Of a stretch of 64,000 nucleotides of DNA, positions 5,459-24,875 are shown piece by piece. The position numbers were made by a program, and so were the translations under genes. Within the stretch, counting starts at the first letter, position 1. Each line of letters begins with the position of its first letter. Below the pieces are notes generated by a model. The model was not told the DNA's origin. It worked only from the letters and a program-made list of their open reading frames with translations, and did not search any database. The stretch covers positions 19,865-83,864 of the forward strand of contig JANPFP010000125.1 in NCBI GenBank assembly GCA_031423495.1. Reading direction: 5' to 3'. This stretch comes from Acidobacteriota bacterium (GTDB lineage Bacteria > Acidobacteriota > Blastocatellia > RBC074).

Positions 5459-5472
5459 GATGAGATACCTTT

Positions 5473-5893: not shown

Positions 5894-5914
5894 CAAAGAA
5901 AGTTTGGTAAGGAA

Positions 5915-6853: not shown

Positions 6854-6880
6854 CCGAGTTGACCGGGCGAGGGCCGCGCC

Positions 6881-7408
6881 GTGAGCGGGGCAGCAAACAC
6901 ATCAAAGCAAAAGTTCACGTTCAGCGCGCGTTGGCTGCCCGGTCAGATTGATCGTGCGGCATGGCGCACTACGCTGACCTATCGTTTTCATCCGCGCTTG
7001 ACGGCGGGCGTTGAATACAACCCGTCGGTAGGCGAATTCAAACCGCTGGTGAATTTTTTGCTGTTGACCGAAACGGCGAAACGTCCGGCGGTGATGTTGG
7101 GTACGAGTACGGATCGTTTAGGTACGCCGTCGGGGCAATCGTTTTATGCGACGGTGAGCAAGAGCATCCGCCGCGAAGTCGGTCTGCCCGTCGCGCCTTA
7201 CGTCGGCATCGCGTATGGCACTTATGAACACCGCTGGCTGCCGCTGGCGGGCGCGAACATCACGCTGACCAAACGCCTTTCGAGCGGCATCGTCTTCAAT
7301 GGCGTAGACACGCACGGCATGGTCAATTATCAGTTTGACCGCCACGTCGTTTCGCTCGTGATGGTGCGAATGCACGAACCGGGCGTGAGTTACAGCATTG
7401 TATTTTGA
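6881..7408 (+). CDS. Hypothetical protein (175 aa, GTG start)
   Basis: ORF in frame with good codon usage. No recognisable motif. Confidence 0.4.
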   Translation: MSGAANTSKQKFTFSARWLPGQIDRAAWRTTLTYRFHPRLTAGVEYNPSVGEFKPLVNFLLLTETAKRPAVMLGTSTDRLGTPSGQSFYATVSKSIRREVGLPVAPYVGIAYGTYEHRWLPLAGANITLTKRLSSGIVFNGVDTHGMVNYQFDRHVVSLVMVRMHEPGVSYSIVF

Positions 7409-10640: not shown

Positions 10641-12386
10641 GTGTCAAACTCTCGCATGATAAAACTTGAACAACACTCTTCACTCGGTTCGGCCTTGCGT
10701 GCTGCGATGGCGGAGTTCGCCAACGAAACCTGCCTGATCGAAGCTGACCGTGAACGCGAAAACCATCGCTGGATTTATGGTGAATTCAACGCGCGTGCTT
10801 TGCCGTTGGCGCAATTCATCCAACAATGCGGCTTCGGGCAACGCGGCTTGGCGGCGAACGCACGCGGCGCGATTATCATGACTAATCAGTCGCGCTGGCC
10901 GTTGGCGGCTTACGCGATTTTTCACAGCGGCGGCGTGCTGGTTCCGTTGGATTACAAACTCTCAGCGCCCGAACATCTCGCATTGCTCAAACATTCGCAA
11001 GCCGAATTGCTCGTCACCGAATTCCATATCTGGCGCGGGATTACGCAATGCCCAGACTTTGCTGAACTCACGCAACTCAAGACCGTCATCGTCACTGACC
11101 CGCCGAAAAAAGGCGATCTGCTCAACGCCGTACCGTTTGACGAAGCGCGGGCCGAGGGCGAGCCGCGTTTCGTCGAGCGCCAGCGCAGCGATTGGGCTTG
11201 CATCGTCTATTCATCCGGCACGGGCGGGCGTCCGAAAGGTTGTGTGCTGACGCATAACAATTACCTCGAACAATGTGCGTCGCTGACTTCGCTTTATCCG
11301 TTCTGGCCGGGCGCGAATTATCTGAGCATTTTGCCGACCAATCACGCGATTGATTTTATGGTGGGCTTTCTGGGGCCGTTCGTATGCGGCGCGACCGTCG
11401 TACACCTGCGCACCTTGCGGCCTGAGTTTGTGCGCGAAGCCTTCACGCGCTTCAAGATCACTTACGTAGCCCTCGTGCCGCTCATCCTCAAAAACCTGCA
11501 AGCCGGACTCGAACAACGCTTCGCCGACTTGCCGCCGTTCAAACGTTTCGTGTTTGAACGCCTGCGATCATTGAATAAAACGCTGACGCGCGAACGTCCG
11601 AATCTCAACCTTAGCCGCAAGCTGCTCAAACAAGTTCACGCGGCGTTTGGCGGGGAACTGCGCGCGATCTTCACGGGCGGCACGTTTTGTGATCCGCAGA
11701 TCATTCAGTTTTTTTACGACTTGGGCATACAGGTTTCGATTGGCTACGGCCTGACTGAAGCGGGCACTACGATTACGTTGAACGACTTGAATCCCTTTCG
11801 CGCCGATACGGTGGGCAAGCCGCTGCCCGGTATGGAAGTCGAAGTTCGCAACCCCGATGTTGACGGCATTGGCATGGTCGCGGTACGCAGCGACACCGTG
11901 ATGTCGCATTACCTAGACGACCCTGAACTCACCGCCGAAACGATTCAGAACGGCTGGCTGTTGACCGGTGATTTGGGACGCTTCGACGCAACGGGACATT
12001 TGCAGCTTTTCGGACGCGCCAAAAACATGATCGTCACCGAAGAAGGCAAAAACGTTTATCCCGAAGACATCGAAAACGCCTTCGGCACACTGCCCGTCAA
12101 AGAGTATTGCGTCTTCGCGGCGAATTACATTTGGCCCGAACGTTCGATGCTCGGCGAAAAACTCGTCATCGTCCTGCGTTTGAACGAAGGCCAAAGCTTC
12201 ACCGACGAACTCAAACAACAACTCGCGCAATCAAACAGTAAGCTGCTCAATTTCAAACGGGTGAGCGGTTATGTGATTTGGGACGAAGACTTCCCGCGCA
12301 CGGCTTCGCTGAAAATCAAACGCATTGCGCTGGCTGAAGCCATTCGCGCGAAAGTGGATCGGCAGGCGGCTTTACAAGAGTTGTGA
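10641..12386 (+). CDS. AMP-dependent synthetase/ligase (acyl-CoA synthetase family)
   Basis: 581 aa. [14 protein letters not shown] motif, YGLTEAG and GDLG regions. Confidence 0.75.
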
Positions 12387-12432
12387 TATTTTCTCCCGCA
12401 CAACGGACATTGGAAGAAAGAGAGGCTACGTT

Positions 12433-13650
12433 ATGAGAGTCACTGAAATCACAGTTAAAGGCTTGTTCGGACTTTTCGATCACGTCATTCCGCTCAATTT
12501 AGAAGACCGCATCACCATCATTCACGGGCCGAATGGTGTAGGGAAAACTGTATTATTAAAGATGCTAGATGCGACTCTAAATGGAAAGTACGAATATCTG
12601 TGGGATATTAGCTTTAGTGAGTTCCGGGTGCGTTTTGACGACTCTTTGTCACTCCTTGTCCGTGGTAATGAGGAAAAGTTAGGGCTATTTTTGGTTGATG
12701 TGGAGAAGATTATCGAACGACACGTCTTACCGATTAAACGGGTTAAACCAGAGCGTCAACCTTGGATGAATGCACTGGAACGCCGCCGACTAACCAGAGA
12801 ATTAGATTATCCAGAATGGCTTCGTGAGCGCCAAAATGCCGCCCCAGTAAATTTGATTGAAACACAACGACTTATTTTACTGAACACTTTTGAGTACGCG
12901 GATGAACGGCGACAGACTGGCAGATATGTTGAGAAAAAAGATCACTACCTAATGATCACCGAATGTGCTCAAAAGTTATCTGAAAAAGTGAAAGCCATAT
13001 TAGCTGAGTCAGCCGAAAAATCTCAAAGTTTGGATCGAACTTTTCCTGCTCGGCTTTTGCAGCATAATTCAATATCAGTTTTGTCTGGTACTGTAATTAA
13101 AGACGAATTGAAACGCCTTGAGCTTGAACGAGAACGTTTAGTTAGTATTGGACTTCTTGATGCCGCAGAATTGGAGGTTTCCAGCGAGTTGCCGATTGAG
13201 CCGCAGAATGAAAGAGTTCTTTCCATCTACATTCAGGATGCCAAAGAGAAACTAGGCGTCTTCAAAGATATTGCTGAACGCCTTAGCCTGTTGCAACAAA
13301 TTATTAACAAGCGATTTCTATTTAAGAAGCTGAGTATTAACAAAGAGCAAGGATTTATTTTTACCTCTGACATCACGACTACTCGCATTCCCCTTGATGG
13401 CCTGTCTTCTGGGGAACAGCATGAGTTGGTGCTTCTTTACGAATTACTTTTCAATACCAAACCTAATTCACTGATTCTTATTGATGAGCCGGAAATTTCG
13501 TTACACGTCGCTTGGCAAATGGGTTTTCTGCGTGACTTGCAGGAAATCTGCCAGCTTGCCTCATTGGATGTGATTATCGCCACGCATTCACCTGAAATCG
13601 TCAGTGACCGTTGGGATTTGACGGTAGAATTAAAAGGCCCGACGAAATAA
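12433..13650 (+). CDS. ABC-type (SMC/RecF/OLD-like) ATPase, AriA-like component of a PARIS-type defense pair
   Basis: Probable start MRVTEITVKGLFG. Walker A GPNGVGKT. Coiled-coil insertion. ABC signature LSSGEQ. Walker B LILIDEPEISLH. H-loop ATHSPE. The gene is markedly AT-richer than the window. It ends 5 bp before the DUF4435-like gene. Confidence 0.65.
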   Translation: MRVTEITVKGLFGLFDHVIPLNLEDRITIIHGPNGVGKTVLLKMLDATLNGKYEYLWDISFSEFRVRFDDSLSLLVRGNEEKLGLFLVDVEKIIERHVLPIKRVKPERQPWMNALERRRLTRELDYPEWLRERQNAAPVNLIETQRLILLNTFEYADERRQTGRYVEKKDHYLMITECAQKLSEKVKAILAESAEKSQSLDRTFPARLLQHNSISVLSGTVIKDELKRLELERERLVSIGLLDAAELEVSSELPIEPQNERVLSIYIQDAKEKLGVFKDIAERLSLLQQIINKRFLFKKLSINKEQGFIFTSDITTTRIPLDGLSSGEQHELVLLYELLFNTKPNSLILIDEPEISLHVAWQMGFLRDLQEICQLASLDVIIATHSPEIVSDRWDLTVELKGPTK

Positions 13651-13655
13651 CCGTT

Positions 13656-14522
13656 ATGAGAGAGCTTCTCAGCCCAGCAACGATTGCCAATCGCATTCGC
13701 ATGAAACGATCACAGTTTCACGGCGCTTTCCTGATCGTCGAAGGCGACACTGATTCACGTTTGCTCCGCAACTTTGTCGTGACGGGAGATTGTCAGTTAG
13801 TAGGCGCTTATGGGAAGGACAATTTGTTCGGTGCGCTGGCGATCCTGAATGCCGAACAACGCACAGGTGTGCTGGCGATTGCGGACGCTGATTTCAAGCG
13901 GCTCGAAGGTCAATTACCTGCCATGCCCAACCTGCATTTCACCGATACGCACGATCTCGAAACGATGATCTTGCAATCGCCTGCGTTGCAAAAGGTTCTT
14001 TCTGAATTCGGCTCTGAACTTAAACTCAAGACGTTCGCCGAAATGCAGCAAGGCACTTTGCGCAGCGTTTTGTTGGCGAGTGGCAGCCGCGTGGGTTATT
14101 TGCGTTGGGCGTCATTGCAGCAACAGTTCGCCTTGAAATTCGAGGGCGTGAAGTTCAGCAAATTCATCAGCGACGAAACGCTGGCGATTGACGATGCCAA
14201 GCTGGTCAAGGCGGTGAAAGATCACTCTCAAGCCCATTACCTGAACGACGCTGACCTGCTCGCGTCAATGGCGCAGTTGCACGATGCGCAACACGATCAA
14301 TGGCAAGTTTGTTGCGGCCACGATTTGGTCGAAATTCTATCGGCTGGATTGCGCAAGGCCATCGGCACGAACGACGCAAAACAAGTAGAGTCGGAACGCC
14401 TCAATGGAGCATTGAGGCTGGCGTATGAGTTCGCCTATTTCTGCGCGACTTCGCTTTACGCCGCTATCAGGGAATGGGAAGCTGCCAATCCGAGGTATCA
14501 AGTTTTTCCTCGTAACGCATAG
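13656..14522 (+). CDS. DUF4435/TOPRIM-like (OLD-family nuclease-like) protein, AriB-like partner of the upstream ATPase
   Basis: 289 aa. N-terminal FLIVEGDTDSRLL (E...DxD Toprim-like signature typical of DUF4435). Translationally linked to the ATPase. Confidence 0.55.
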   Translation: MRELLSPATIANRIRMKRSQFHGAFLIVEGDTDSRLLRNFVVTGDCQLVGAYGKDNLFGALAILNAEQRTGVLAIADADFKRLEGQLPAMPNLHFTDTHDLETMILQSPALQKVLSEFGSELKLKTFAEMQQGTLRSVLLASGSRVGYLRWASLQQQFALKFEGVKFSKFISDETLAIDDAKLVKAVKDHSQAHYLNDADLLASMAQLHDAQHDQWQVCCGHDLVEILSAGLRKAIGTNDAKQVESERLNGALRLAYEFAYFCATSLYAAIREWEAANPRYQVFPRNA

Positions 14523-14642: not shown

Positions 14643-15593
14643 TCAAGAAAGGAAAAGTCCGGGCTGAAGCGCTTCGCGTTTGCGCTTGGCTGAAGGCAAT
14701 TCGTCGGTTGGCATTTCTAGCGACGCTCCTTTGAATTTTGGATAGAGCGCGCTGAGTCGCGCAATGTTTTCGCGTAAAGCTGTGCAATACTCTTTGTCAA
14801 TTTCGACGCCGATGGAGTTGTAGCCGACCGCCTGGCAAGCGGCGATGGTTGAGCCTGATCCGCAAAACGGATCAAGGATAGTTCCTGCTTCCAGCGGCAA
14901 CAGGCTGCGCACGAGAATGCGCATCAGGTGTTGCGGCTTTAGCGTAGGGTGGTTGGAAATAGCTTCTTCGACTGCTGGCGTTTTGCCGCTGGGAATAATG
15001 TCGGGCAACGGTTGATCTTCGTTGAGTCTGCGCAATGCTCCCGTTCCATATTTTCTTAAGTTTTGGGCGACGGTTTTTTCTTCGATAGGCTTGCGAAAAA
15101 GCATCCAAGGTTCATAAGCTCCACGTGGCGTGACGCACACTTCGGGGAACTCATTTTCTGCGAGCTTGGGGCGGTCGCCGCCGCGAAAGCCGCGATAGAC
15201 GCGCATCAAGGCACCGCGCACTTCAAAACCCGCTTCAGCCATGCCGCTTTGCACCAAGTGTTGCAACATCGGCGTGCCTGCGAGCAAAACGTGTCCGCCC
15301 GGTACGAGAATGGGCAGCAAGGCTTCGCCGAATTCTTTGAAGTAAACACGCACGTGTTCACGCTCTTGCGCTGACAACGTAGTGAAACGAGGTAAAGGCG
15401 CGCGCTGGCTGCCGCCGATGTTGGGCGGAATGCGCCACACGCCGCCGCGCCCGTTACGCAACTTAGTCATCTCGTTCGGCAGAAACTCGACAATGCCGAA
15501 AGGCGGATCAGTGCAGACCCCATGCAAGCTGGCAGGCGCTTGCGCACGGAGCCAGGCAAAACAATCAGCGTGATAAAGGGTGTATGGAGTCAT
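14643..15593 (-). CDS. Beta-class DNA N6-adenine/N4-cytosine methyltransferase (type II R-M modification subunit)
   Basis: Start taken at internal Met (MTPYTLYHADCFAWL). Motif IV TDPPFGI near the N-terminus, HPTLKP, motif I FCGSGSTIAA near the C-terminus, giving beta-class order (PF01555-like). Confidence 0.8.
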   Translation of the reverse strand: MTPYTLYHADCFAWLRAQAPASLHGVCTDPPFGIVEFLPNEMTKLRNGRGGVWRIPPNIGGSQRAPLPRFTTLSAQEREHVRVYFKEFGEALLPILVPGGHVLLAGTPMLQHLVQSGMAEAGFEVRGALMRVYRGFRGGDRPKLAENEFPEVCVTPRGAYEPWMLFRKPIEEKTVAQNLRKYGTGALRRLNEDQPLPDIIPSGKTPAVEEAISNHPTLKPQHLMRILVRSLLPLEAGTILDPFCGSGSTIAACQAVGYNSIGVEIDKEYCTALRENIARLSALYPKFKGASLEMPTDELPSAKRKREALQPGLFLS

Positions 15594-15656
15594 TACTGTG
15601 ACTTTCACATATAGTTGAAAGACTGTCAAGAAGGCAGTTGATAGTATCCCGAAACA
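15594..15656. promoter_or_regulatory. Divergent promoter/operator region between methyltransferase and HTH-nuclease genes
   Basis: 63-bp AT-richer spacer between divergently transcribed genes, one of which encodes an XRE HTH. A likely C-box-type autoregulatory site, not directly identified. Confidence 0.3.
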
Positions 15657-16547
15657 ATGAGTGAAGCTCAAAAAATCATCGGCGCTTATGTGCGAGCCTT
15701 GCGCGAGCAGCGCGGCTTGTCGTTGGAAGCCTTAGCTGCTCAAGCCGACATCAGCTATCAATATCTCTCAGGCGTAGAAACCGGCAAACAGAATTTTAGT
15801 GTGCAAGTGCTGGAAGCGTTAGCGCGCGCGTTGGACCTTCCTATCAGGACTTTGATGGTCGGAGCTTACGACTTGGCCGCAGGAGCAGCGCCTCCAAGAT
15901 TGCACAAAGAGTATTTCAGGCCACAAGCGCCATTGCCACCCGGACTGACGCTCGCACATTTAGAAAACGCTGCCAATCAAACGCAAGCCATCATCCATCG
16001 CATCAATCGAAACCTGAGTGTAGAAGCCGGGCAAACTTTGCAATCGCTTATTCAGGGCAATAATTTTTCGGGTTTGGTTTCGAACATTTTTAGCAACTCA
16101 CTGGATGCGTTTTCGCCTTACAAGCACAACCATAGTCAACGTTACCCTGACTTGATTTATCAACCGGGCAAAAAAGGCGCGGCGGTTGGGCTTGAAGTGA
16201 AAGTTACGATCAACGCTGGTAAAGGGGGCGAAAGTCACAATGGTCATAGCGGTTGGCACGTTATTGCTTGCTACCATTTTGTTGAAAACGGTGATATTCA
16301 ATTTATCCACTTTATGTTTGCCCAACTGAATGGACACCAGCATTCAGAGTCTGACTGGAGCTATGTTGGCAGTAAGGTGAACGCAGCCACAGGCAGTCGG
16401 CGAACCGAAACTTATACGACCACATTGGCAGGAACTACGAAATTGCGAGATGGTTCGGTTTATCTGGATACCGGCAAAGTTGATTTTTCCCATTGGCGGC
16501 AAGCGCGCCAAGGAGAGCCTCCCGTTTGGTCGCTCTATGCTAAGTAA
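15657..16547 (+). CDS. XRE-family HTH fused to a putative PD-(D/E)xK nuclease domain (candidate restriction endonuclease with built-in controller)
   Basis: 296 aa. N-terminal HTH_3 (LSLEALAAQADISYQYLSGVETGKQN). The C-terminal domain has YPDLIY...GLEVKVT, matching PD-x(n)-E-x-K. Divergent to the MTase. Lower GC. Confidence 0.45.
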   Translation: MSEAQKIIGAYVRALREQRGLSLEALAAQADISYQYLSGVETGKQNFSVQVLEALARALDLPIRTLMVGAYDLAAGAAPPRLHKEYFRPQAPLPPGLTLAHLENAANQTQAIIHRINRNLSVEAGQTLQSLIQGNNFSGLVSNIFSNSLDAFSPYKHNHSQRYPDLIYQPGKKGAAVGLEVKVTINAGKGGESHNGHSGWHVIACYHFVENGDIQFIHFMFAQLNGHQHSESDWSYVGSKVNAATGSRRTETYTTTLAGTTKLRDGSVYLDTGKVDFSHWRQARQGEPPVWSLYAK

Positions 16548-16595
16548 ACTGAACTATCAATCGTCCCTAATTAACACCTGTTTACGAAAGTTGAA

Positions 16596-17438
16596 ATGAT
16601 GAAACTTTATCGAACCACGCACGGCCCCGTTCTCGAAGATCGCGGCGACCACTATCAACTGCCCGAATCTGATTGGGACGTATTGCTCAATCGCGGCGAT
16701 CACGAACACGTGTTGACGAGCATGTCGCGGCGCGCGACGCGCATTCACAACTTCACGATCAATGATGACGTACTCGCGCCGATCGGTACGCAGGAAGTAT
16801 GGGCGGCGGGTGTGACCTATTACCGCTCGCGTACGGCGCGGATGGAAGAATCGAAGGACGCAGGTGGCGGCAGCTTTTATGATCGCGTATACGATGCCGC
16901 GCGGCCTGAGTTGTTTTTCAAGGCTACGCCGCCGCGTGTTGCCGGGCCGGGGCAGAAAGTGCGCATTCGCAAAGATTCAAAGTGGAACGTGCCTGAACCT
17001 GAGTTCACGCTCGTGGCGAATGCGCAAGGTCAGATTATTGGCTACACGATTGGCAATGACATGAGTTCGCGCGACATCGAGGGCGAGAACCCTTTGTATT
17101 TGCCGCAGGCGAAATGTTACGCGCAAAGCTGTGGCCTTGGCCCGTGCGTGCTGCTGGCGAACGGCAATCCGATGCCGCGCGAAACCGCAATCACGATGGA
17201 TATTTTGCGCAACGGCGCGACGGCCTTTCACGGCGAAACGACGCTCACCGAACTCAAACGTACGCCCGAAGAACTGATCGAATATCTCTTCCGCGACAAT
17301 CATTTTTCTACGGGTGTATTCCTGCTTACCGGCGCGGGCATCATTCCGCCTGACGAATTCACGCTGCAACCCGACGACGAAGTGCGCATCACTATCGAAC
17401 CCATCGGCACGCTCGTGAATTACGTCGTGCAAGGCTGA
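16596..17438 (+). CDS. Fumarylacetoacetate hydrolase (FAH) family protein
   Basis: 280 aa. FAH-fold pattern ([10 protein letters not shown]..., [25 protein letters not shown]..., GTL). Confidence 0.7.
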
Positions 17439-17514
17439 GATGATTGCAGGTTGCAGATTGCAGATTGCAGATTTTCAGAACTAACAACGAACAACTGACC
17501 ACTAACAACTAACA

Positions 17515-19113
17515 ATGCAATTACATGGACAGAACATCATCGCAGGCCAATCGCAAGCGGGCGCTGGCTCAACTTTCAACGGCTTGAATCCGGCGACGAG
17601 CGCAGTGCTTGAGCCTGCTTATCAAGAGGCTTCGACCGAACAGATCAACGCGGCGGTCGAAGCGGCGGCTGCGGCGTTTGACGCTTATCGTCACAAGAGC
17701 GCCGACGAACGCGCGGCCTTTCTCGAACGCATTGCCGACGAAATACTGGCGTTGGGAGACGAGTTGTTGCAGCGCGCGCACGCCGAAACCGCTTTGCCGT
17801 TAGAGGCGCGACTGATGGGCGAACGCGGACGCACGATGGGGCAGTTGAAACAGTTCGCGGCGCTGGTGCGCGAAGGTTCGTGGGTCGAAGCGCGCATTGA
17901 TCTAGCGCAACCCGAACGTGCGCCGCTGCCCAAGCCCGACATTCGCCGGATGTTGATTCCGATGGGGCCGGTGGCGGTATTCGCCGCGAGCAATTTTCCG
18001 TTGGCGTTTTCGGTGGCGGGCGGCGATGCGGCTTCAGCGTTGGCGGCGGGCTGTCCCGTAGTTTTGAAAGCGCATCCCGCGCATCCAGGCACGTCAGAAA
18101 TAGTAGCGCGCGCGATTGCGACGGCGGCTGAAGCGACCGGCATGCCTGCAGGCGTATTCTCACTCGTTCACGGCACGAGCCACGAAGTCGGCAGCACGCT
18201 CGTCAAGCATCCGCTCATCAAGGCCGTAGGCTTCACCGGTTCGTTGCGCGGCGGACGCGCGCTGTTTGACGCGGCGGCGGCGCGACCTGAACCGATTCCG
18301 GTTTACGCCGAAATGGGCAGCATCAATCCCGTATTCATTTTGCCCGGCGCGTTGCGCGAACGTTCAGCGGCACTGGCCGAAGGCATGAAAAATTCTGTCA
18401 CACAGGGCGTAGGCCAGTTTTGCACTTGCCCCGGTTTGGCGGTTGGGTTGAGTGACGAGAGCTTCACGAATTTTTCAGACAAGCTGAATGAACTGATGGC
18501 TGACGCGCCGACGGCGACGATGTTGTATCCGGCGATTGCCAAATCGTTTTCCGACGGCGTGCGCAAGCTGGCGCATCTTGAAGGTGTGAAAACTACGCAA
18601 GCCAAACAGACGGCTGAGTTCGGCAAGACGCACGCTTCGCCGACGGTGTTTACGACTGATGCGGCTACGTTCAACGCGCATCACGAATTAAGCGAAGAAG
18701 TCTTTGGCCCGGCGACTGTCGTCGTCGCTTGCGATGATCGTGCGCAACTCGAATCCATCGCGCGCAATCTCGAAGGCCACTTGACCGCGACGATTCACGG
18801 TACGCCGGAAGACCTGAAAGAGTATGTGACGCTGGTTGAAATTCTTGCGACCAAAGCGGGGCGGCTGATTTTCAACGGCTATCCGACGGGCGTCGAAGTT
18901 TGTCCTTCGATGCAACACGGCGGGCCTTATCCCGCTACGACCGATGTGCGCACGACTTCAGTCGGCACGGCGGCGATTGCGCGCTTTGCGCGTCCGGTGG
19001 CTTATCAGGGCTTTCCGCAAGCGGCTTTGCCGGTCGAATTGCGCAACGAAAACGCGCGCGGCGTATGGCGTTTGGTGGATGGCGCAATGTCGCAAGCGAA
19101 TTGCGGTGAGTGA
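17515..19113 (+). CDS. NAD(P)-dependent aldehyde dehydrogenase (alpha-ketoglutarate semialdehyde dehydrogenase-like)
   Basis: 532 aa. ALDH-superfamily length and motifs (FTGS..G, EMGS.NP, catalytic Cys region GQFCTCPG). Confidence 0.75.
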   Translation: MQLHGQNIIAGQSQAGAGSTFNGLNPATSAVLEPAYQEASTEQINAAVEAAAAAFDAYRHKSADERAAFLERIADEILALGDELLQRAHAETALPLEARLMGERGRTMGQLKQFAALVREGSWVEARIDLAQPERAPLPKPDIRRMLIPMGPVAVFAASNFPLAFSVAGGDAASALAAGCPVVLKAHPAHPGTSEIVARAIATAAEATGMPAGVFSLVHGTSHEVGSTLVKHPLIKAVGFTGSLRGGRALFDAAAARPEPIPVYAEMGSINPVFILPGALRERSAALAEGMKNSVTQGVGQFCTCPGLAVGLSDESFTNFSDKLNELMADAPTATMLYPAIAKSFSDGVRKLAHLEGVKTTQAKQTAEFGKTHASPTVFTTDAATFNAHHELSEEVFGPATVVVACDDRAQLESIARNLEGHLTATIHGTPEDLKEYVTLVEILATKAGRLIFNGYPTGVEVCPSMQHGGPYPATTDVRTTSVGTAAIARFARPVAYQGFPQAALPVELRNENARGVWRLVDGAMSQANCGE

Positions 19114-19160
19114 TTGAGGTCAGTACTATTGCGCCGCTCAACGACACCGCGACATAACGA

Positions 19161-19592
19161 ATGAGAGGTAAGAGTATGAAAGTTTTTATTAGTTACGCTG
19201 ACACCGATCGTGAGGTGGCGCAGCGCGTGACGCAAAGCCTGAAAGCCGATGGCTTGTCGGTCTGGTCTGACGAAGACGAAGTTTTTCCGGGCGATAACTG
19301 GGCGGCGAAGGTAGCGCAGGGCGTGGAAGAAGCCGATGCGATTGTCGCTTTGCTGACGCCCGAATCGCTGCATTCACGTTCTGTGCGCTCAGACATCAAT
19401 TACGCGCTGGGCAAAAAAGCATTGAAGGACAAGCTCATTCCCGTGTGGTTGGGCGGAGAAGATTCCGCTCAACAAGAAAGTTTCCCGTGGATTTTGCGCC
19501 ACTTACCGATGATTCAACTGCTGGATAACGAACAGGATGAAGTCGGATTCAAACGTATTGCGGACGCGCTGCACGCGGCTCCTGCGCATTAA
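19161..19592 (+). CDS. TIR-domain-only protein 1
   Basis: 143 aa. MKVFISYADTDREVAQRV...LSVWSDEDEVFPGDNW...EADAIVALLTPESLHSRSVRSDINYAL is the canonical bacterial TIR/TIR-like (DUF1863) arrangement (FISY..D, conserved acidic W...D, alpha-C with S..W...E). Confidence 0.7.
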   Translation: MRGKSMKVFISYADTDREVAQRVTQSLKADGLSVWSDEDEVFPGDNWAAKVAQGVEEADAIVALLTPESLHSRSVRSDINYALGKKALKDKLIPVWLGGEDSAQQESFPWILRHLPMIQLLDNEQDEVGFKRIADALHAAPAH

Positions 19593-19623
19593 GCCATTGT
19601 TTTCACGCACGACGTGAGAGGCA

Positions 19624-20037
19624 GTGATGCTACCAACCGAATTGTTTCTCTCCCATTCCAGTCAGGATCAAGCCTTTGTCGATCCATTGGTTGCGGTGTT
19701 GCGTCGCCACGGCGTCCCGGTTTGGTATAGTCCCACGAATATCATCGGCGCGCAGCAATGGCACGATGAAATCGGTAAGGCGCTGAAACGATGCGATTGG
19801 TTTTGTGTGGTGCTTTCGCCGCAAGCCGTCGCCTCGACCTGGGTCAAACGCGAAACGGTTTACGCCTTGAACGACCGCCGTTATGACAATCGCATTGTCC
19901 CGCTGCTTTATCAGCCTTGCGCTCACGACAACCTTTCGTGGACGCTCAGTTCTCTGCAATTCGTAGACTTTTCGCAACAACTCGAAGACGGCTATCGCCA
20001 ACTTCTGCGCACTTGGGGGCTGGGTTATCAACTATAA
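19624..20037 (+). CDS. TIR-domain-only protein 2
   Basis: 137 aa. LFLSHSSQDQAFVDPLVAVLRRHGVPVWYSPTNIIGAQQWHDEIGKALKRCDWFCVVLSPQAVASTWVKRE... matches TIR_2 (FxSHSS.D...L...L...G..vw.d...i..G..w...I...l....vvlSp...S.W...E). Confidence 0.7.
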   Translation: MMLPTELFLSHSSQDQAFVDPLVAVLRRHGVPVWYSPTNIIGAQQWHDEIGKALKRCDWFCVVLSPQAVASTWVKRETVYALNDRRYDNRIVPLLYQPCAHDNLSWTLSSLQFVDFSQQLEDGYRQLLRTWGLGYQL

Positions 20038-20049
20038 ATCGGAGTCAAT

Positions 20050-20724
20050 ATGCCACGTAAAATCTCGCAAGGGCAGTGTCAATTCTGTAAGGAGTTCATA
20101 ACCAAAACGGCTGCCACGCGGCATCTGGCGAAATGCGAGGCTCGGCAAGCTGCTTTGGCTAAAGCAGAGAAGCAGTCTGTGCCCGAAGAGCCGTTGTTTT
20201 ATTTACGTGCGCAAGCCAATTACGCGCCGGAGTTCTGGCTTGATGTGGAAGTGAAAGGCAATGCGACGCTCGAATCGTTGGATGGATATTTACGTTCTAT
20301 CTGGTTGGAATGCTGCGGTCATCTGAGTCAATTCGGCGATTTCGGGGAAGATGAGTTGCCGATGACGATGAAAATCAGCCGCGCGTTGCCGGTGGGAGCC
20401 AGTTATTTACACCTTTATGATTTCGGTACGACCTCAGAAACTAATATCAAGTCGGTCTCATCGCGCGTCGGCAAGCCGCTCACGAAACATCCGATTACCT
20501 TGTTGTTTCGCAACGCGCCGCCCGAAGTGGAATGCATTGAATGCGGCGCGGCAGCGAAATGGTTTTGTCAGGAATGCCTGATCGAAGACGACTCGCCCGG
20601 CTTGCTGTGCGACCAGCACGTCGAAAATCATCCGCACGACGAGTATGGCGAACCGACGGAGTTGGTGAATTCGCCGCGCATGGGAATGTGCGGTTACGAC
20701 GGCCCCGCCGAACCACCTTACTGA
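20050..20724 (+). CDS. Cys/His-rich hypothetical protein (N-terminal C2HC finger, C-terminal zinc-ribbon-like cluster)
   Basis: 224 aa. C10-x2-C13-x11-H25-x3-C29. C-terminal CIEC-x8-CQEC-x10-C-x2-H-x3-H-x-H. The gene is 12 bp downstream of the second TIR gene. No recognised catalytic motif. Confidence 0.45.
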   Translation: MPRKISQGQCQFCKEFITKTAATRHLAKCEARQAALAKAEKQSVPEEPLFYLRAQANYAPEFWLDVEVKGNATLESLDGYLRSIWLECCGHLSQFGDFGEDELPMTMKISRALPVGASYLHLYDFGTTSETNIKSVSSRVGKPLTKHPITLLFRNAPPEVECIECGAAAKWFCQECLIEDDSPGLLCDQHVENHPHDEYGEPTELVNSPRMGMCGYDGPAEPPY

Positions 20725-20744
20725 TTTCAACCCAGGAGAATTTT

Positions 20745-22838
20745 ATGCCCTTCCTTCGCACGTATTTTCGCGCTGCTCTGGCAGTAATTTTGCTCGTCAC
20801 TTTCGCTTTTGCCCAAACGCAAATCGTGGGGCATTGGGAAGGTGCTATCGAAGTTCCCAACCTCGCACTCGGCATTCAAGTGGACGTTGACGGTAAGCTG
20901 AGCGCGACCATCACGATTCCAGCGCAAGGCGCAAAAGATTTGGCGTTGTCGAATGTGAACTTCGCGGCAGGTGAATTCACCTTTACCATTCCTGACGCGC
21001 CGGGCAATCCGCAATTCAAGGGTAAGCTCAATGCTGACGGTCAAAAGATCACGGGTACGTTCACGCAAGGCGGGCAGAGCTTTCCTTGCAACCTCACGCG
21101 CAAAGCCGAAGCAAAATCCGTAGACAATAATAAAGACCCGTTGGAAGGCTTTGAGGCCGTCGTCATTGAGGGCATGAAAAAACTCGAAGTCCCCGGCATG
21201 GCAATCGCCATCGTCAAAGGCAAAGAGGTGATTTGGGCAAAAGGCTTCGGCAAGCGTGACGTAGAAAAACAATTGCCCGTCACGCCCGACACGATCTTTG
21301 CCATCGGTTCAAGTACGAAGGCTTTCACGACCTTTACGCTCGGCACGCTGGTGGACGAAGGCAAAGTCGAATGGGACAAGCCGGTACGGAATTACCTGCC
21401 GTGGCTCAAGCTCTATGACCCCGCGATGACTGAACGCTTGAGCGTACGTGATTTGGTCACGCATCGTTCAGGGCTGCCGCGCCACGACTTGGTTTGGTAT
21501 GGCAATTACACTGCTTCGCGTGAATCCTTCGTGCGCAAGCTCGCCTTTCTTGAACCGAGCGCCGACCTGCGCGAGCGGTGGCAATACAACAATTTGATGT
21601 ATCTCACGGCGGGCTATCTCACTGAAGTTCTCACCGGCAAAACGTGGGAAGACGCCGTGCGCGCCCGCGTGTTTGAACCGCTGGGCATGAAGCGCAGCAA
21701 TTTCAGTATCAACGAATCGCAAAAGGACAACGACTTCGCGCAACCTTATGCCAAGCGCGGCGACGCGGTGGTCAAGATTCCGTTCCGCGACATCAGCAAC
21801 ATCGGCCCGGCGGGTTCGATCAATTCGAGCGTCAACGAAATGGCGCGCTGGGTGACGGCGCATCTCAACGGCGGCAAATATGGTGACCAACAAATCGCCT
21901 CTGCCGCGACGGTCAACGAAATGCACCTGCCGCAAATGGCTACGGGCGCGCCGGGCGATCATCCTGAAATTTCTTCGATGGATTACGGGTTGGGCTGGAT
22001 GATTGACACTTATCGCGGTCATCAGCGCGTACAGCACGGCGGCAACATTGACGGCTTCTCGGCGAATGTTGTGCTTTTCCCCAAAGATAAACTCGGCATC
22101 GTCGTGTTGACCAATCTCAACGGTTCGGCGTTGCGGGATTTGATTACGCGCGAAATGGCTGACCGCGTTTTCAAGCTGTCCAACGTGCCATGGATTGACG
22201 CGGCGGCAGCGAATCGCGCTACGCTCGAAGCCGCCTCAAAAGCCGGTGAAATGAAAAAAGAAGCCGCGCGCGTAGCGGGTACGCAACCCGCCCACAAGCT
22301 CTCAGATTACGTCGGCGACTATGAGCATCTCGGTTACGGCATCGTGAAAGTCGCCTTGAACGCGGGCAAACTCTCCGCGACGTTCAACACGATTGAGACG
22401 CCGCTGGAGCATTGGCATTACGAAACGTTTAATGGCGGCAAGGGCAAAGAAGTGACGTTTGAAAATATGAAATACACTTTTCAAACCGACGCGAAAGGTT
22501 TTGTCGCCAAGTTGGTGGGGGGCTTTGAACCGACCGTCAATGACATTGTGTTCGTCAAAAAGCCGGATGTGCGTTTGTTTGACGCAGCGCATCTGGCGCA
22601 CTTCGTCGGCACCTATGATTTGCTCGGGCAAGCCGTGACGGTGAGTTTGAAAGGGAATGTCTTGTTGATGCAAACCGGCAATCAACGACCAGCGGAATTG
22701 TCGCCCGGACTGGATGGCAGCTTCACGCCGAAAGTGGCGCGTTCGCAGAGTTTGTTTTTCGTGACCGACGCGAACGGCAAGGTGACGGCGGTTGAATTGC
22801 GGCAACCGAGTACTACGCTGACGGCGAAACGCAAATAA
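20745..22838 (+). CDS. Secreted serine hydrolase, class C beta-lactamase/PBP4-like family with C-terminal domain
   Basis: Start at MPFLRTYFRAALAVILL (signal peptide). SxxK motif AIGSSTKAFT, YxN-like and HxG regions. ~697 aa. Confidence 0.7.
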   Translation: MPFLRTYFRAALAVILLVTFAFAQTQIVGHWEGAIEVPNLALGIQVDVDGKLSATITIPAQGAKDLALSNVNFAAGEFTFTIPDAPGNPQFKGKLNADGQKITGTFTQGGQSFPCNLTRKAEAKSVDNNKDPLEGFEAVVIEGMKKLEVPGMAIAIVKGKEVIWAKGFGKRDVEKQLPVTPDTIFAIGSSTKAFTTFTLGTLVDEGKVEWDKPVRNYLPWLKLYDPAMTERLSVRDLVTHRSGLPRHDLVWYGNYTASRESFVRKLAFLEPSADLRERWQYNNLMYLTAGYLTEVLTGKTWEDAVRARVFEPLGMKRSNFSINESQKDNDFAQPYAKRGDAVVKIPFRDISNIGPAGSINSSVNEMARWVTAHLNGGKYGDQQIASAATVNEMHLPQMATGAPGDHPEISSMDYGLGWMIDTYRGHQRVQHGGNIDGFSANVVLFPKDKLGIVVLTNLNGSALRDLITREMADRVFKLSNVPWIDAAAANRATLEAASKAGEMKKEAARVAGTQPAHKLSDYVGDYEHLGYGIVKVALNAGKLSATFNTIETPLEHWHYETFNGGKGKEVTFENMKYTFQTDAKGFVAKLVGGFEPTVNDIVFVKKPDVRLFDAAHLAHFVGTYDLLGQAVTVSLKGNVLLMQTGNQRPAELSPGLDGSFTPKVARSQSLFFVTDANGKVTAVELRQPSTTLTAKRK

Positions 22839-23902
22839 TGACGCTCTTTGATTTTGCATTTGACGATCGCTTGGCTTATGCCGCGACGTTGCCTGCGCGG
22901 TTTTATCGCGGAGCCGAGACGCTGGCTGCCGAGCGCGAGCGCGTGTTTGCGGCCTCGTGGCAGTTGATGGGGCGAACCGATCAATTGCCTGAATCCGGCA
23001 GCTACTTCACGACCGAAATCGTAGGTGAGCCGCTGTTGATCGTGCGCGATCAGGCGGGCGAGATACGCGGCTTTTATAACGTATGCCGCCATCGAGCCGG
23101 TCGCGTAGCGGAAAGCACGGGTTGCCGGCCGACGTTTCGTTGCGGCTATCACGGTTGGACTTACGCGCTGGATGGCAGCTTGATTGGCGTGCCGGATTTC
23201 GCCGGCGTGCAAAATTTCGACAAGGTGGATTTCGCGCTCAAGCCGATTCGCGTCGCCGTGTGGGAACAGTTCATCTTTGTGAACTTGTCGAATAAGGCTG
23301 AAGACTTGTCAGTCTTTCTCGGTGACATTACCGCCAAGACGGCGCGGTTTAACGTCAGCCGGATGCAGTTGGTCGAGCGGCGCGATTACGTGATTGCGTG
23401 CAACTGGAAGGTTTACGTAGACAACTATCTCGAAGGCTATCACGTACCCGTAGCTCATCCGTCGTTGATGCGCGAACTTGATTACGTCAATTACCGCACG
23501 GTCACGCATCGCTACCATTCGTTGCAGGATGCGCCGCTCAAGCAAGACGCGCAGGTTTATTCGCCCGCCAGTGGTGGCGCAGAGGCGCTTTATTATTGGG
23601 TTTTTCCGAACCTGATGTTGAACGTTTATCCTGACAACTTGTCTACGAATTTGATCGTGCCGCTTGATGACGAACGCACGCTGACGGTCTTCGAATGGTA
23701 CTTTCACGATGCCGAGCCTGCGCGCGTGGTGCAAACCATCAAGTTCAGTGACGAAATTCAGCAGGAAGACATCACGCTTTGCGAAAACGTGCAGCGCGGG
23801 TTGCGTTCGCGTTCGTATGAGCGCGGACGGTATTCAGTGCGGCGCGAAAATGGCGTGCATCACTTTCACGGGCTGTGGCGCGAATTTATGACGAAAGCCT
23901 GA
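22838..23902 (+). CDS. Rieske [2Fe-2S] non-heme iron oxygenase alpha-subunit-like protein
   Basis: 354 aa. Rieske motif CRHRAG...CGYHGW. C-terminal catalytic domain with the E..H...H pattern (EGYHVPVAHP). Start overlaps the upstream stop (TAATG). Confidence 0.7.
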   Translation: MTLFDFAFDDRLAYAATLPARFYRGAETLAAERERVFAASWQLMGRTDQLPESGSYFTTEIVGEPLLIVRDQAGEIRGFYNVCRHRAGRVAESTGCRPTFRCGYHGWTYALDGSLIGVPDFAGVQNFDKVDFALKPIRVAVWEQFIFVNLSNKAEDLSVFLGDITAKTARFNVSRMQLVERRDYVIACNWKVYVDNYLEGYHVPVAHPSLMRELDYVNYRTVTHRYHSLQDAPLKQDAQVYSPASGGAEALYYWVFPNLMLNVYPDNLSTNLIVPLDDERTLTVFEWYFHDAEPARVVQTIKFSDEIQQEDITLCENVQRGLRSRSYERGRYSVRRENGVHHFHGLWREFMTKA

Positions 23903-23912
23903 GAGGCTTGCA

Positions 23913-24875
23913 ATGATTGACCACGACCGCATTTTCAAAGAGCTGATTCGCACCTTCTTTATCGAATTTATCGAGTTGTTTTTCCCTGAATTGCACGCCG
24001 ACCTCGAACCGGAGTCGCTGGAATTTCTCGACAAAGAGGTTTTCACCGATGTGACAGAAGGCGAGAAGCACGAAGCAGATTTGATTGTGAAGACGCGGTT
24101 GCGCGGGCAAGAGGCTTACTTCCTCATCCACATTGAGGCGCAAAGCTAGTGGCTTTCGGTCTTTCCGCGCCGGATGTTTACCTATTTCGCGCGCTTGCAC
24201 GAAAGCCATCAAGCACCAGTTTATCCGATTGTTGTGCTGACGGCTGAGAGTCCGTTGTATGCAGTGCCGAGTGAATACGTCGTGGCAGTTTCAGGCTGGA
24301 CGGTGTTGCAATTCAATTATCGCGTCGTGCAGTTGAACCGTTTGCCGTGGCGTGATTTCATCCGGCATGAGAATCCGCTGGCGAATGCGCTGATGGCGAA
24401 AATGCAAATGACACCGGAAGAGCGCAAGCAGGTCAAAGTCGAATGCCTGCGTTTGATTCTGACCTGCCAACTCGACCCGGCACGCATGCAAATGTTGGCG
24501 GGTTTCGTTGACACTTATTTGCGCTTGCCGCCGCAGGAAGAGCAATGGTTTGAAACCGAAGTGGCAAAATTTGATCCACCAAACAAGGAGAATGCTATGT
24601 ATCTCATGACAACCTGGGAAAGACTTGGAATGGAAAGAGGAATGGAAAAAGGCTTGCAACAAGGTGTTTCGCAAGAAGCGCAAACCTTCGTGTTGCGTCT
24701 GGCAGCGAAGCGGTTTGGTGTACCACTCGACAGCACGTTGGAAACGCGCATTCGACAACTTACAGTTCCGCGTCTTGAGGAATTGGGCGAGTCCCTCTTT
24801 GAGTTTCACGCGCTGATAGATTTAACCAATTGGTTAGAGCAGGCAGAAAACACTCCTCAAGCATTGTTGAATTAA
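23913..24875 (+). pseudogene. Rpn/YhgA-family (PD-(D/E)xK, Transposase_31/DUF4351) nuclease gene interrupted by in-frame TAG at 24147-24149
   Basis: N-part MIDHDRIFKELIRTFFIEFIELFFPELHADLEPESLEFLDKEVFTDV...EADLIVKTRL.GQEAYFLIHIEAQS, then TAG, then in-frame ...YFARLHESH.PVYPIVVL... The C-terminus has the DUF4351-like repeat (TWERLGMERGMEKG...). The two ORFs are in the same frame (261 nt apart). Confidence 0.6.

What the first reader, a model, noticed from the sequence alone, without database searches (positions are those of the whole stretch)
19161..20724. Tight operon of two TIR-only proteins plus a Cys/His-rich protein: candidate undescribed TIR-based (Thoeris-like) module
Two consecutive small ORFs (143 and 137 aa) each consist of a single TIR/TIR-like domain, with a 31-bp gap between them. 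The FISY/FLSHS beta-A motif, conserved acidic positions and the S-x-W-x3-E alpha-C motif are all visible. They are followed 12 bp later by a 224-aa protein with an N-terminal C2HC finger (C-x2-C-x11-H-x3-C) and a C-terminal CxxC-x8-CxxC-x10-C-x2-H-x3-H-x-H cluster. No known enzymatic motif is recognisable in that third protein. Bacterial TIR proteins generate signalling nucleotides (gcADPR, His-ADPR) or act as NADases in Thoeris, CBASS and Pycsar-associated systems. Known Thoeris effectors (SIR2/SLOG, Macro) are absent here. The Zn-binding protein is therefore a candidate new effector or sensor, and the two TIRs could be paralogous sensors as in multi-ThsB Thoeris loci. The trio lies between metabolic genes and is separated by ~3 kb from the PARIS/R-M island.
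Basis: partly seen in the sequence, partly recalled or inferred. Interest (0 to 1): 0.8.

Follow-up and report, generated by a model that had tools for sequence, protein, structure and literature searches.

The report
Conserved two-TIR cassette beside unrelated gene
The two small TIR genes are a real, widely conserved two-gene unit of unknown role, but the zinc-rich gene next to them is an independent gene that sits there only in this lineage, so the proposed three-gene immune system does not exist as such.

Summary
The three ORFs exist as described. Both small proteins are TIR_2 domains. The third is Cys/His-rich and matches no family by sequence.

The three-gene "Thoeris-like module" does not hold:
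- Protein 3 belongs to a large family of stand-alone MM3350/PF07929-like zinc proteins, found in at least 584 species.
- In 80 loci from many phyla it has no TIR nearby and no recurrent neighbour.
- A close relative (L084) has the same Aldedh→protein 3 synteny without the TIR genes.
- One 9.5-Mb Acidobacteriota chromosome carries the TIR pair and protein 3 about 4.8 Mb apart.

The conserved unit is the TIR1–TIR2 pair:
- In 80 of 80 metagenomic TIR2 loci a TIR1-type gene lies directly upstream. Protein 3 is present in 0 of 84.
- The two genes co-diverge (r = 0.73), duplicate as a unit, and occur once as a TIR1–TIR2 fusion.
- TIR2 keeps the catalytic Trp and Glu in 57 of 57 pairs. TIR1 is relaxed (Glu 37, Asp 17, Ser/Thr 3) and has Asp73 in the window.
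- Neighbours are mostly housekeeping genes, not defence genes. There are no phage hits and one distant plasmid hit.

Best reading (inferred): a self-contained heteromeric TIR NADase, with catalytic TIR2 and regulatory TIR1. I found no description of it. I rate it a new variant of a known kind, of moderate interest.

The parts
19176..19592 (+). TIR1: the upstream, faster-evolving TIR-only protein (138 aa; the longest ORF starts at 19161). The catalytic-position residue is Asp73 (codon 19392-19394) and the preceding Trp is missing. The BB-loop motif P38-G-D-N-W42 is conserved across the family.
   Evidence: Pfam TIR_2 E 1.6e-25. Start supported by public gene calls and family alignment A2. hhalign places TIR1 D73 opposite TIR2 E76. 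Census over 57 pairs: Glu 37, Asp 17, Ser 2, Thr 1; Trp in only 17 of 57.
19627..20037 (+). TIR2: the downstream, highly conserved TIR-only protein (136 aa; the ORF from GTG starts at 19624). Catalytic-type Trp72 (codon 19840-19842) and Glu76 (codon 19852-19854).
   Evidence: Pfam TIR_2 E 1.2e-26. W72 and E76 are invariant in A3 and in 57 of 57 non-redundant pairs. Aligns with AbTir, PdTIR and BtpA across the W…E motif. AF2 model pLDDT 90.7; Foldseek top hits are PdTIR, SPARTA TIR-APAZ, BtpA, AbTir and SARM1.
20050..20724 (+). Protein 3. It is NOT part of the TIR unit. It is an adjacent, independently conserved stand-alone gene with an MM3350/PF07929-like core, an N-terminal CCHC finger, a C-terminal B-box/ZZ-like Cys/His cluster, and an invariant tail NSPRxGxCGYxGPxxPPY.
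   Evidence: More than 3108 homologs. At least 584 species loci. No TIR within ±6 kb in 80 loci. No recurrent neighbour. AF2 pLDDT 86.9 and Foldseek hit to 2i1s MM3350 at E 5e-4, probability 1.0. PF07929 matched weakly in 26 of 31 family members.
17515..19113 (+). Aldehyde dehydrogenase, a syntenic anchor and not part of the unit. In related Acidobacteriota, FAA_hydrolase-Aldedh is followed by TIR1-TIR2 (L088, L089), by protein 3 alone (L084), or by both (this window).

Best explanation
The functional unit is a two-gene cassette, TIR1 (19176-19592) and TIR2 (19627-20037). It is not a trio. Protein 3 is an unrelated stand-alone MM3350-like zinc protein. It is adjacent to the TIR pair only in this lineage of probable Acidobacteriota.

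Shown:
- The TIR1-TIR2 pair is obligately linked across phyla.
- The two genes are inherited and duplicated as a unit, and occur once as a single-chain fusion.
- TIR2 is a canonical NADase-type TIR with invariant catalytic Trp and Glu.
- TIR1 is a distant paralog (18% identity). Its catalytic position is relaxed, but its BB-loop motif and PWIL motif are conserved.

Inferred mechanism:
- The two proteins form a hetero-oligomer.
- TIR2 supplies the NAD+-cleaving or cyclising active site.
- TIR1 acts as a regulatory or templating partner, a weak enzyme or pseudo-enzyme. It would gate the head-to-tail, BB-loop-mediated TIR assembly that NADase-type TIRs such as SARM1, AbTir, SPARTA and plant TIRs need to build a composite active site.
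- The output would be NAD+ depletion or an ADPR-derived nucleotide.

The biological role is open. Candidates are a self-contained growth-arrest, abortive-infection or toxin-antitoxin-like switch, or a signal synthase with an unlinked receptor.

My confidence is about 0.9 for 'the pair is the unit and protein 3 is unrelated'. It is about 0.45 for the heteromeric NADase mechanism.
For: Pairing: 80 of 80 metagenomic TIR2 loci with upstream room have a TIR1-type ORF directly upstream, with a median gap of about 15 bp. The same arrangement occurs in Blastocatellales, another Acidobacteriota genome, Nostoc and Gemmatimonadota.

Co-divergence: r = 0.73 over 57 non-redundant pairs, Mantel 0 of 2000.

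Unit behaviour: the cassette is tandemly duplicated as T1-T2 units in L138. The natural fusion P0305 (288 aa) has an N-terminal half that scores best with the TIR1 HMM (78.6 vs 16.5 bits). Its C-terminal half scores best with the TIR2 HMM (201.9 vs 63.0 bits). It was seen on two contigs.

Catalysis: TIR2 has W72 and E76 in 57 of 57 pairs. TIR1 has Glu 37, Asp 17, Ser/Thr 3. The TIR2 fold matches NADase TIRs.

Constraint: TIR1 evolves faster than TIR2, with mean pairwise identity 49% vs 64%. TIR1's invariant residues cluster in beta-A, the P-G-x-N-W BB loop and the PWIL motif, not at the catalytic site.

Protein 3 independence.

No third conserved gene: the best neighbours are UppS in 12 and CdsA in 10 of 150 flanking ORFs.
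Against:
- Charge complementarity between the partners is absent.
- Most TIR1 homologs keep an acidic residue (54 of 57), so TIR1 may be catalytically active rather than regulatory.
- The fusion evidence rests on one intact example, in an IS/integrase-flanked context, plus one decayed example.
- A housekeeping context and high conservation are atypical for defence modules, so the physiological role remains a guess.
- An unlinked effector cannot be excluded with ±6 kb windows.
Confidence: 0.6

Rival explanations
1. TIR1, TIR2 and protein 3 form one three-gene Thoeris-like system in which the Zn-rich protein is the effector or sensor for a TIR-made nucleotide.
For: Tight spacing on one strand in the window (31 and 12 bp). 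The arrangement is retained in near relatives with 84-100% identical protein 3. No terminator-like site lies between the genes.
Against: 0 of 80 protein-3 loci have any TIR. 0 of 84 TIR-pair loci have protein 3. L084 has Aldedh→protein 3 without TIRs, and a hairpin followed by a T-run precedes protein 3 there. In one chromosome the two are about 4.8 Mb apart. Protein 3 has no known nucleotide-sensing domain such as SLOG, Macro, SAVED or CARF.
Confidence: 0.03
2. The two TIRs are Thoeris-like signal producers, two ThsB-type sensors as in multi-ThsB loci. Their effector is encoded elsewhere in the genome.
For: Weak domain-level matches to ThsB profiles: PADLOC ThsB at 6.7e-08 and 4.1e-08, and Pfam ThsB_TIR at about 1e-3. 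Thoeris effectors are very diverse, with 29 putative types.
Against: Thoeris is defined by a TIR gene next to its effector, and none is conserved here. The pairing of two specific paralogs is strict, unlike the variable ThsB copy number. One fusion exists. TIR2 is far more conserved than phage sensors usually are. No known Thoeris effector appears in the listed hits for the 64-kb window.
Confidence: 0.12
3. The pair is a non-enzymatic protein-protein scaffold or adaptor. TIR-TIR interaction would be used for assembly or regulation, with no NAD+ chemistry.
For: TIR domains are interaction modules in animal signalling. TIR1's catalytic site is relaxed. The neighbours are housekeeping genes.
Against: TIR2 keeps the Trp and Glu of the NADase motif in 57 of 57 pairs, and its closest structures are NAD+-cleaving TIRs. 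Invariance of a catalytic pair is hard to explain without catalysis.
Confidence: 0.1
4. Lineage-specific co-option. The families are independent in general, but in this window's lineage protein 3 has become co-transcribed with the TIR pair and functionally coupled to it.
For: A 12-bp gap with a GGAG ribosome-binding motif. Adjacency persists between 84% and 100% identical relatives, although the downstream genes differ.
Against: No sequence feature of the window's protein 3 sets it apart from stand-alone homologs; all invariant columns are kept. Adjacency over such a short evolutionary distance is expected by descent alone.
Confidence: 0.05

Closest known systems
Thoeris anti-phage systems (types I-XI; ThsB TIR plus effector)
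   Same: Small TIR-only proteins. Weak profile similarity to ThsB. Some Thoeris loci carry several TIR genes, for example type III.
   Different: No adjacent effector gene of any kind is conserved. The pair is a fixed couple of two distant paralogs, not a variable ThsB array. The loci are not in defence islands. TIR2 is unusually conserved.
Single-gene short-TIR defence systems of E. coli (TIR-V, TIR-VI, TIR-IX; PMC11350192)
   Same: The proteins consist of little more than a TIR domain and act without a separate effector.
   Different: Those are single genes shown to defend against phage. Here two paralogous genes are obligately paired, one has a relaxed catalytic site, and no phenotype is known. 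Homology to those proteins was not tested.
Bacterial NADase TIR domains (AbTir, PdTIR, BtpA/TcpB, SPARTA TIR-APAZ)
   Same: TIR2 shares the fold and the W-x3-E catalytic motif. These are its best PDB matches by sequence (E 2e-7) and by structure (E about 1e-6, TM 0.6-0.8).
   Different: Those act as homo-oligomers or with Argonaute. TIR2 comes with a dedicated TIR paralog.
Plant paired TIR-NLRs RRS1/RPS4 (TIR-TIR heterodimer in which one TIR restrains or partners the signalling-competent one)
   Same: It resembles the proposed logic: a hetero-association of a competent TIR with a divergent partner TIR. This comparison is from my own knowledge; the RPS4/RRS1 TIR interaction also appears in a title and abstract listed.
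   Different: Unrelated architecture (NLRs), eukaryotic, no homology beyond the TIR fold. This is an analogy only.
MM3350 / PF07929 (plasmid pRiA4b ORF-3-like) proteins, for protein 3 only
   Same: The core fold matches PDB 2i1s. 26 of 31 family members hit PF07929 weakly. Some homologs are labelled this way by NCBI.
   Different: The window protein itself is below any Pfam threshold. The family adds an N-terminal CCHC finger, a C-terminal Cys/His cluster and an invariant C-terminal tail. The function of PF07929 is itself unknown.

Membership tests
Thoeris | A TIR-domain (ThsB-type) protein | tested here: met
   Pfam TIR_2 at E 1.6e-25 and 1.2e-26. ThsB profiles are matched only weakly, at domain level.
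Thoeris | An effector gene encoded next to the TIR gene (SIR2-SLOG, Macro-TM, caspase-like, DUF2270 and others; definition as) | tested here: not met
   No third gene is conserved in 84 TIR-pair loci; the best neighbours are UppS (12) and CdsA (10) among 150 flanking ORFs. Protein 3 is present in 0 of 84. No known effector domain in protein 3.
Thoeris | Enrichment next to known defence genes (defence score criterion) | tested here: not met
   PADLOC scan of 150 flanking ORFs gave only singleton defence hits. Pfam shows mostly housekeeping or metabolic families. The window itself has PARIS 4.6 kb away, but this is not general.
Thoeris | Phage defence, and production of a cADPR-isomer or His-ADPR signal | not testable with these tools
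   Needs phage challenge and LC-MS.
NADase-type TIR domains | TIR fold | tested here: met
   TIR2 AF2 model pLDDT 90.7, with Foldseek hits to PdTIR, AbTir, BtpA, SPARTA and SARM1 at probability 1.0. TIR1 aligns to TIR2 by hhalign with probability 99.65.
NADase-type TIR domains | Catalytic Glu in alpha-C, preceded by a conserved Trp (W-x3-E) | tested here: met
   Met for TIR2: W72 and E76 are aligned with AbTir and PdTIR and invariant in 57 of 57 pairs.
NADase-type TIR domains | The same catalytic Glu and Trp in TIR1 | tested here: not met
   The window's TIR1 has Ser at the Trp position and Asp73 at the Glu position. Across the family: Glu 37, Asp 17, Ser 2, Thr 1; Trp in 17 of 57.
NADase-type TIR domains | NAD+ cleavage activity | not testable with these tools
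   Biochemical assay needed.
PF07929 / MM3350-like (protein 3) | Match to the Pfam model above its gathering score | tested here: not met
   The window protein has no Pfam hit at E ≤ 1. 26 of 31 relatives hit PF07929 weakly, best E 1.1e-6.
PF07929 / MM3350-like (protein 3) | MM3350 fold | tested here: met
   Foldseek against PDB: 2i1s at E 5e-4, probability 1.0, about 125 aligned columns; no other hit below E 0.09. Model pLDDT 86.9.
Type II toxin-antitoxin modules | Two small co-directional genes with a very short gap, upstream partner less conserved, patchy chromosomal distribution | tested here: met
   Median gap about 15 bp. TIR1 49% vs TIR2 64% mean identity. Present or absent among close relatives.
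Type II toxin-antitoxin modules | Antitoxin with a DNA-binding domain, or another sign of neutralisation such as charge complementarity | tested here: not met
   TIR1 is a TIR domain only. Median pI is 5.4 vs 6.1, and only 5 of 73 pairs are acidic/basic.

The most novel reading that the evidence does not exclude
The TIR1-TIR2 pair is an obligate heteromeric TIR enzyme, made of a catalytic TIR2 and a degenerate paralog TIR1 that gates its assembly. It would work outside classical defence islands, in one of two ways. It could be a chromosomal NAD+-consuming growth-arrest switch, that is, a TIR/TIR toxin-antitoxin-like module. Or it could be a nucleotide-signal synthase wired into normal physiology in Acidobacteriota, Nostoc and Gemmatimonadota. 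Either would be the first effector-less, paralog-regulated TIR module described in bacteria.
Probability: 0.22. Interest if true: 0.75.

Novelty: new variant of a known kind. Interest (0 to 1): 0.45.

Why it matters
Bacterial TIR biology is currently organised around two schemes: 'TIR plus effector' (Thoeris) and 'sensor plus TIR effector' (CBASS, Pycsar, SPARTA, Avs).

This cassette fits neither scheme. It consists of two distant TIR paralogs and nothing else. It is strictly paired across phyla. One partner has an invariant catalytic site and the other a relaxed one. It sits among housekeeping genes.

If the two proteins form a regulated hetero-oligomer, it would be a minimal natural system for studying how TIR-TIR assembly switches NADase activity on. 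That question is shared with SARM1 and with plant TIR immunity. It would also show that defence-island-based screens miss some TIR modules.

For annotation, the result warns against reading tight spacing in one genome as evidence for a system. It also flags protein 3 as a large, strongly conserved zinc-protein family of unknown function.

Tried and rejected
1. Protein 3 as a TIR partner: rejected. tblastn and HMM searches of all six-frame fragments found no TIR in 80 protein-3 loci. Clustering found no recurrent neighbour.
2. A conserved third gene next to the TIR pair: none found.
3. The pair as phage- or plasmid-borne cargo: 0 viral contigs, 0 phage records, and one distant plasmid hit at 40.7% identity.
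4. Charge complementarity as a sign of a toxin-antitoxin or hetero-complex: no signal.
6. Foldseek against afdb50 for protein 3: the library was unavailable.
7. Promoter and terminator scan of 16400-24200: counts were at or below shuffled expectation and none lay in the TIR/protein-3 intergenic gaps, so it is uninformative.
8. Literature search for paired bacterial TIR-only genes and for PF07929 function: nothing relevant. The supplements of the 2025 Thoeris survey contain no PF07929, PRiA4, MM3350 or PF13676 strings.
9. NCBIfam: only far-sub-threshold domain-level hits, to retron-TIR and to Thoeris type III ThcB4.
Full report
OBSERVATION

The likely true starts of the first two are ATG 19176 (138 aa) and ATG 19627 (136 aa). 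Each is preceded by GAGAGG. Public gene calls on identical contigs use these starts. Every homolog begins MKVFIS… or MLPxE….

Both small proteins are single TIR domains: Pfam TIR_2 at E 1.6e-25 and 1.2e-26. PADLOC and NCBIfam give only domain-level, sub-threshold matches to many TIR-containing systems. Protein 3 (224 aa) matches nothing in Pfam, PADLOC or NCBIfam.

The S-x-W-x3-E motif is present only in TIR2 (W72, E76), where it aligns with the catalytic motif of AbTir and PdTIR. TIR1 has Ser and Asp73 at the corresponding positions.

The surrounding context is as stated. Aldedh lies upstream and a beta-lactamase-family hydrolase with DUF3471 lies downstream. A PARIS-like AAA_15/DUF4435 (AriA/AriB) pair sits in a low-GC patch at 12325-14522. 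A DNA methylase is at 14643-15671(-).

PROTEIN 3 IS AN INDEPENDENT GENE

Protein 3 has more than 3108 homologs of about 227 aa. They are 50-60% identical across Chloroflexota, Acidobacteriota, Gammaproteobacteria, Cyanobacteria, Bacteroidota, Desulfobacterota and other phyla.

The family alignment shows several conserved features:
- an N-terminal C-x2-C-x11-H-x3-C finger;
- an invariant WLECCGH motif and an invariant YDFG motif;
- a C-terminal CxxC-x7-CxxC-x10-C-x2-[H/C]-x3-H-x-H cluster;
- an invariant tail, NSPRxGxCGYxGPxxPPY.

A confident AF2 model (pLDDT 86.9) matches only MM3350 (PDB 2i1s), the prototype of Pfam PF07929, at E 5e-4 and probability 1.0. In addition, 26 of 31 family members hit PF07929 weakly. 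The function of that family is unknown.

A scan of one genome per species found at least 584 loci. I analysed the 80 loci kept (770 kb in total; 71 have at least 1 kb upstream). There is no TIR by tblastn or by TIR1/TIR2 HMMs on all six-frame fragments. No neighbouring gene family occurs in more than 10 loci.

Three comparisons are decisive.
1. L084 carries a protein 3 that is 66% identical. It is collinear with the window from the methylase through HTH, FAA_hydrolase and Aldedh (Aldedh 83% identical by global alignment). It then continues directly into protein 3. The ~940 bp holding TIR1 and TIR2 is simply absent, and a hairpin followed by a T-run follows Aldedh.
2. L088 and L089 are more distant Acidobacteriota (Aldedh 68% identical). 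They have FAA_hydrolase-Aldedh-TIR-TIR followed by a convergent YjbR gene and no protein 3.
3. L089 and L006 come from the same 9,536,885-bp chromosome. The TIR pair is at 8.75 Mb and the protein-3 homolog at 3.92 Mb.

The trio is seen only in near kin of the window, at 84-100% protein-3 identity. Each component therefore exists without the other. The adjacency is a lineage-specific accident within a long co-directional gene array.

THE CONSERVED UNIT IS THE TIR1-TIR2 PAIR

The TIR2 family is large and unusually conserved. The word-indexed search found at least 1740 clusters at 90% identity. Members are 62-70% identical between Acidobacteriota, Nostoc, Gemmatimonadota, Armatimonadota and Longimicrobiaceae. 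TIR1 homologs are more divergent.

Individual genomes from Blastocatellales, another Acidobacteriota lineage, Nostoc and Gemmatimonadota all show TIR1-type then TIR2-type genes on the same strand, 22-38 bp apart, in otherwise unrelated neighbourhoods.

A metagenome scan with the TIR2 profile gave at least 457 loci. In the 80 retained loci that have room upstream, all 80 carry a TIR1-type ORF directly upstream. The script scored 73 automatically. The other 7 were artefacts of my ORF caller over-extending TIR2's start. The median gap is about 15 bp. Protein 3 occurs in 0 of 84 loci.

Across 57 non-redundant pairs the two proteins co-diverge (Pearson r = 0.73; Mantel 0 of 2000 permutations). TIR1 evolves faster, with mean pairwise identity 49% against 64% for TIR2. 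In L138 the cassette is tandemly duplicated as T1-T2 units.

The exhaustive profile search found 281 representatives at E ≤ 1e-30. Many of the top hits are large multi-TIR proteins that rank highly because their domain scores add up. That search also uncovered P0305, a 288-aa protein. Its N-terminal half scores best with the TIR1 HMM and its C-terminal half with the TIR2 HMM, in the same order as the gene pair. It was seen on two contigs. P0385 is a second fusion whose TIR2 half is decayed. A natural fusion is classical evidence that two proteins work together physically, although here it rests on one intact case.

CATALYTIC RESIDUES

Profile-profile alignment shows that TIR1 and TIR2 are true but distant paralogs (probability 99.65%, 18% identity). 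It puts TIR1 D73 opposite TIR2 E76.

TIR2 has Trp and Glu at the W-x3-E positions in 57 of 57 pairs. TIR1 has Glu in 37, Asp in 17 and Ser or Thr in 3, and keeps the Trp in only 17 of 57. The window's TIR1 is one of the Asp variants.

TIR1's invariant residues are instead in beta-A, in the P-G-x-N-W segment that aligns with TIR2's G-A-Q-Q-W BB-loop/alpha-B junction, and in a PWIL motif.

The TIR2 model (pLDDT 90.7) is a canonical TIR with E76 in helix 71-82. Its closest solved relatives are NAD+-cleaving TIRs: PdTIR, SPARTA TIR-APAZ, BtpA, AbTir and SARM1.

CONTEXT OF THE PAIR

Among 150 ORFs flanking the pair, the commonest families are undecaprenyl-diphosphate synthase (12), CDP-diglyceride synthase (10), MFS_3 (5) and TruA (5). 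In one lineage the pair lies inside the uppS-cdsA-dxr housekeeping cluster. PADLOC hits among these neighbours are singletons.

The family is absent from viral contigs and phage genomes, and nearly absent from plasmids. No known Thoeris effector appears among the listed PADLOC hits for the 64-kb window.

MECHANISM

Shown: a strictly paired, co-inherited two-gene unit that has fused once. It has one invariant NADase-type TIR and one paralog with a relaxed catalytic site but conserved interaction-type motifs.

Inferred, from established knowledge that NADase TIRs (SARM1, AbTir, SPARTA, plant TIRs) need head-to-tail, BB-loop-mediated self-association to form a composite active site:
- TIR1 and TIR2 form a hetero-oligomer.
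- TIR2 does the NAD+ chemistry.
- TIR1 gates or templates the assembly.

The outcome could be NAD+ depletion (a self-contained growth-arrest or abortive-infection switch, or a toxin-antitoxin-like pair) or synthesis of a nucleotide signal for an unlinked receptor. The gene order, small sizes, short gaps, patchy presence among close relatives and faster-evolving upstream partner are toxin-antitoxin-like. However, there is no DNA-binding antitoxin domain and no charge complementarity. I could not model the complex.

COMPARISON WITH KNOWN SYSTEMS

The closest kinds are the following.
- Thoeris. The defining adjacent effector and the defence-island enrichment were tested and not met.
- The AbTir/PdTIR/BtpA class of NADase TIRs.

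The most comprehensive survey of TIR signalling systems (bioRxiv 10.64898/2025.12.03.692087) required a defence score above 0.4 and discarded stand-alone TIRs. Its text and held supplements do not mention PF07929 or MM3350. A housekeeping-embedded TIR pair would probably have been filtered out. I found no paper describing a bacterial TIR-TIR-only cassette. Absence from the held library is not proof of absence.

VERDICT

The three-gene interpretation is wrong. What remains is a conserved two-TIR cassette, undescribed as far as I could find. I rate it a new variant of a known kind with moderate interest (0.45).

The most novel reading not excluded is an effector-less, paralog-regulated heteromeric TIR enzyme acting outside classical defence. 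I give that reading a probability of about 0.22.

Noticed in passing
window 20050-20724 (and loci L004-L083): Protein 3 belongs to a large stand-alone family of unknown function: more than 3108 proteins, at least 584 species, 50-60% identity across more than 10 phyla. It has an MM3350-like core, about three Zn-type Cys/His sites and an invariant C-terminal tail NSPRxGxCGYxGPxxPPY. It has no conserved neighbours.
   Followed up: partly
L138 4631-6929 (metagenome contig Ga0247727_10007010): The TIR1-TIR2 cassette is tandemly duplicated: T1 4631-5050, T2 5054-5479, T1 5567-5980, T2 about 6001-6426, T1 6507-6929.
   Followed up: partly
L172 1596-2462 and L173 105-971 (protein P0305): A natural single-chain TIR1-type + TIR2-type fusion (288 aa), flanked by an integrase fragment and an IS1595-type transposase fragment. 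P0385 (291 aa) is a similar fusion with an internally deleted TIR2 half.
   Followed up: partly
L092, L098, L100, L103, L113, L120, L122, L126, L131, L132, L147, L152, L167: In one lineage the TIR pair is inserted, co-directionally, between uppS and cdsA of the housekeeping uppS-cdsA-dxr cluster.
   Followed up: partly
window 12325-14522: A PARIS-like pair sits in a low-GC patch (GC about 0.42 against about 0.55 around it). It consists of an AAA_15/AAA_21 ATPase (AriA hits to 4e-26) and a DUF4435 protein (AriB hit 2e-19). This suggests a recently acquired defence islet.
   Followed up: partly
window 2667-3587: A 306-aa ORF matches a type IV methyl-directed restriction enzyme profile almost end to end (PADLOC mREase_IV, E 1.2e-96).
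   Followed up: no
window 14643-15671 (-) and L084 1513-2394 (-): An N6_N4 DNA methylase next to an HTH_3/HTH_31 regulator gene is syntenic between the window and L084. It is therefore a resident gene pair, apparently an orphan methylase, rather than part of a mobile R-M island.
   Followed up: no
L088 8045-9126: The Blastocatellales contig carrying a TIR pair also encodes a third, longer TIR_2-containing protein (at least 361 aa, cut by the contig end) 1.6 kb downstream.
   Followed up: no
proteins P0300-P0304 and many others: Very large proteins (1000-2300 aa) carry 3-7 TIR repeats. P0300 also has C-terminal WD40-like repeats. They top the TIR2 profile search because their domain scores add up. 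Their organism and function were not examined.
   Followed up: no
L084 5948-6000: A hairpin followed by a T-run (GTGGAG…CTCCAC-TTTTTT) lies between Aldedh and protein 3 in the relative that lacks the TIR pair. This suggests protein 3 is separately transcribed there.
   Followed up: no
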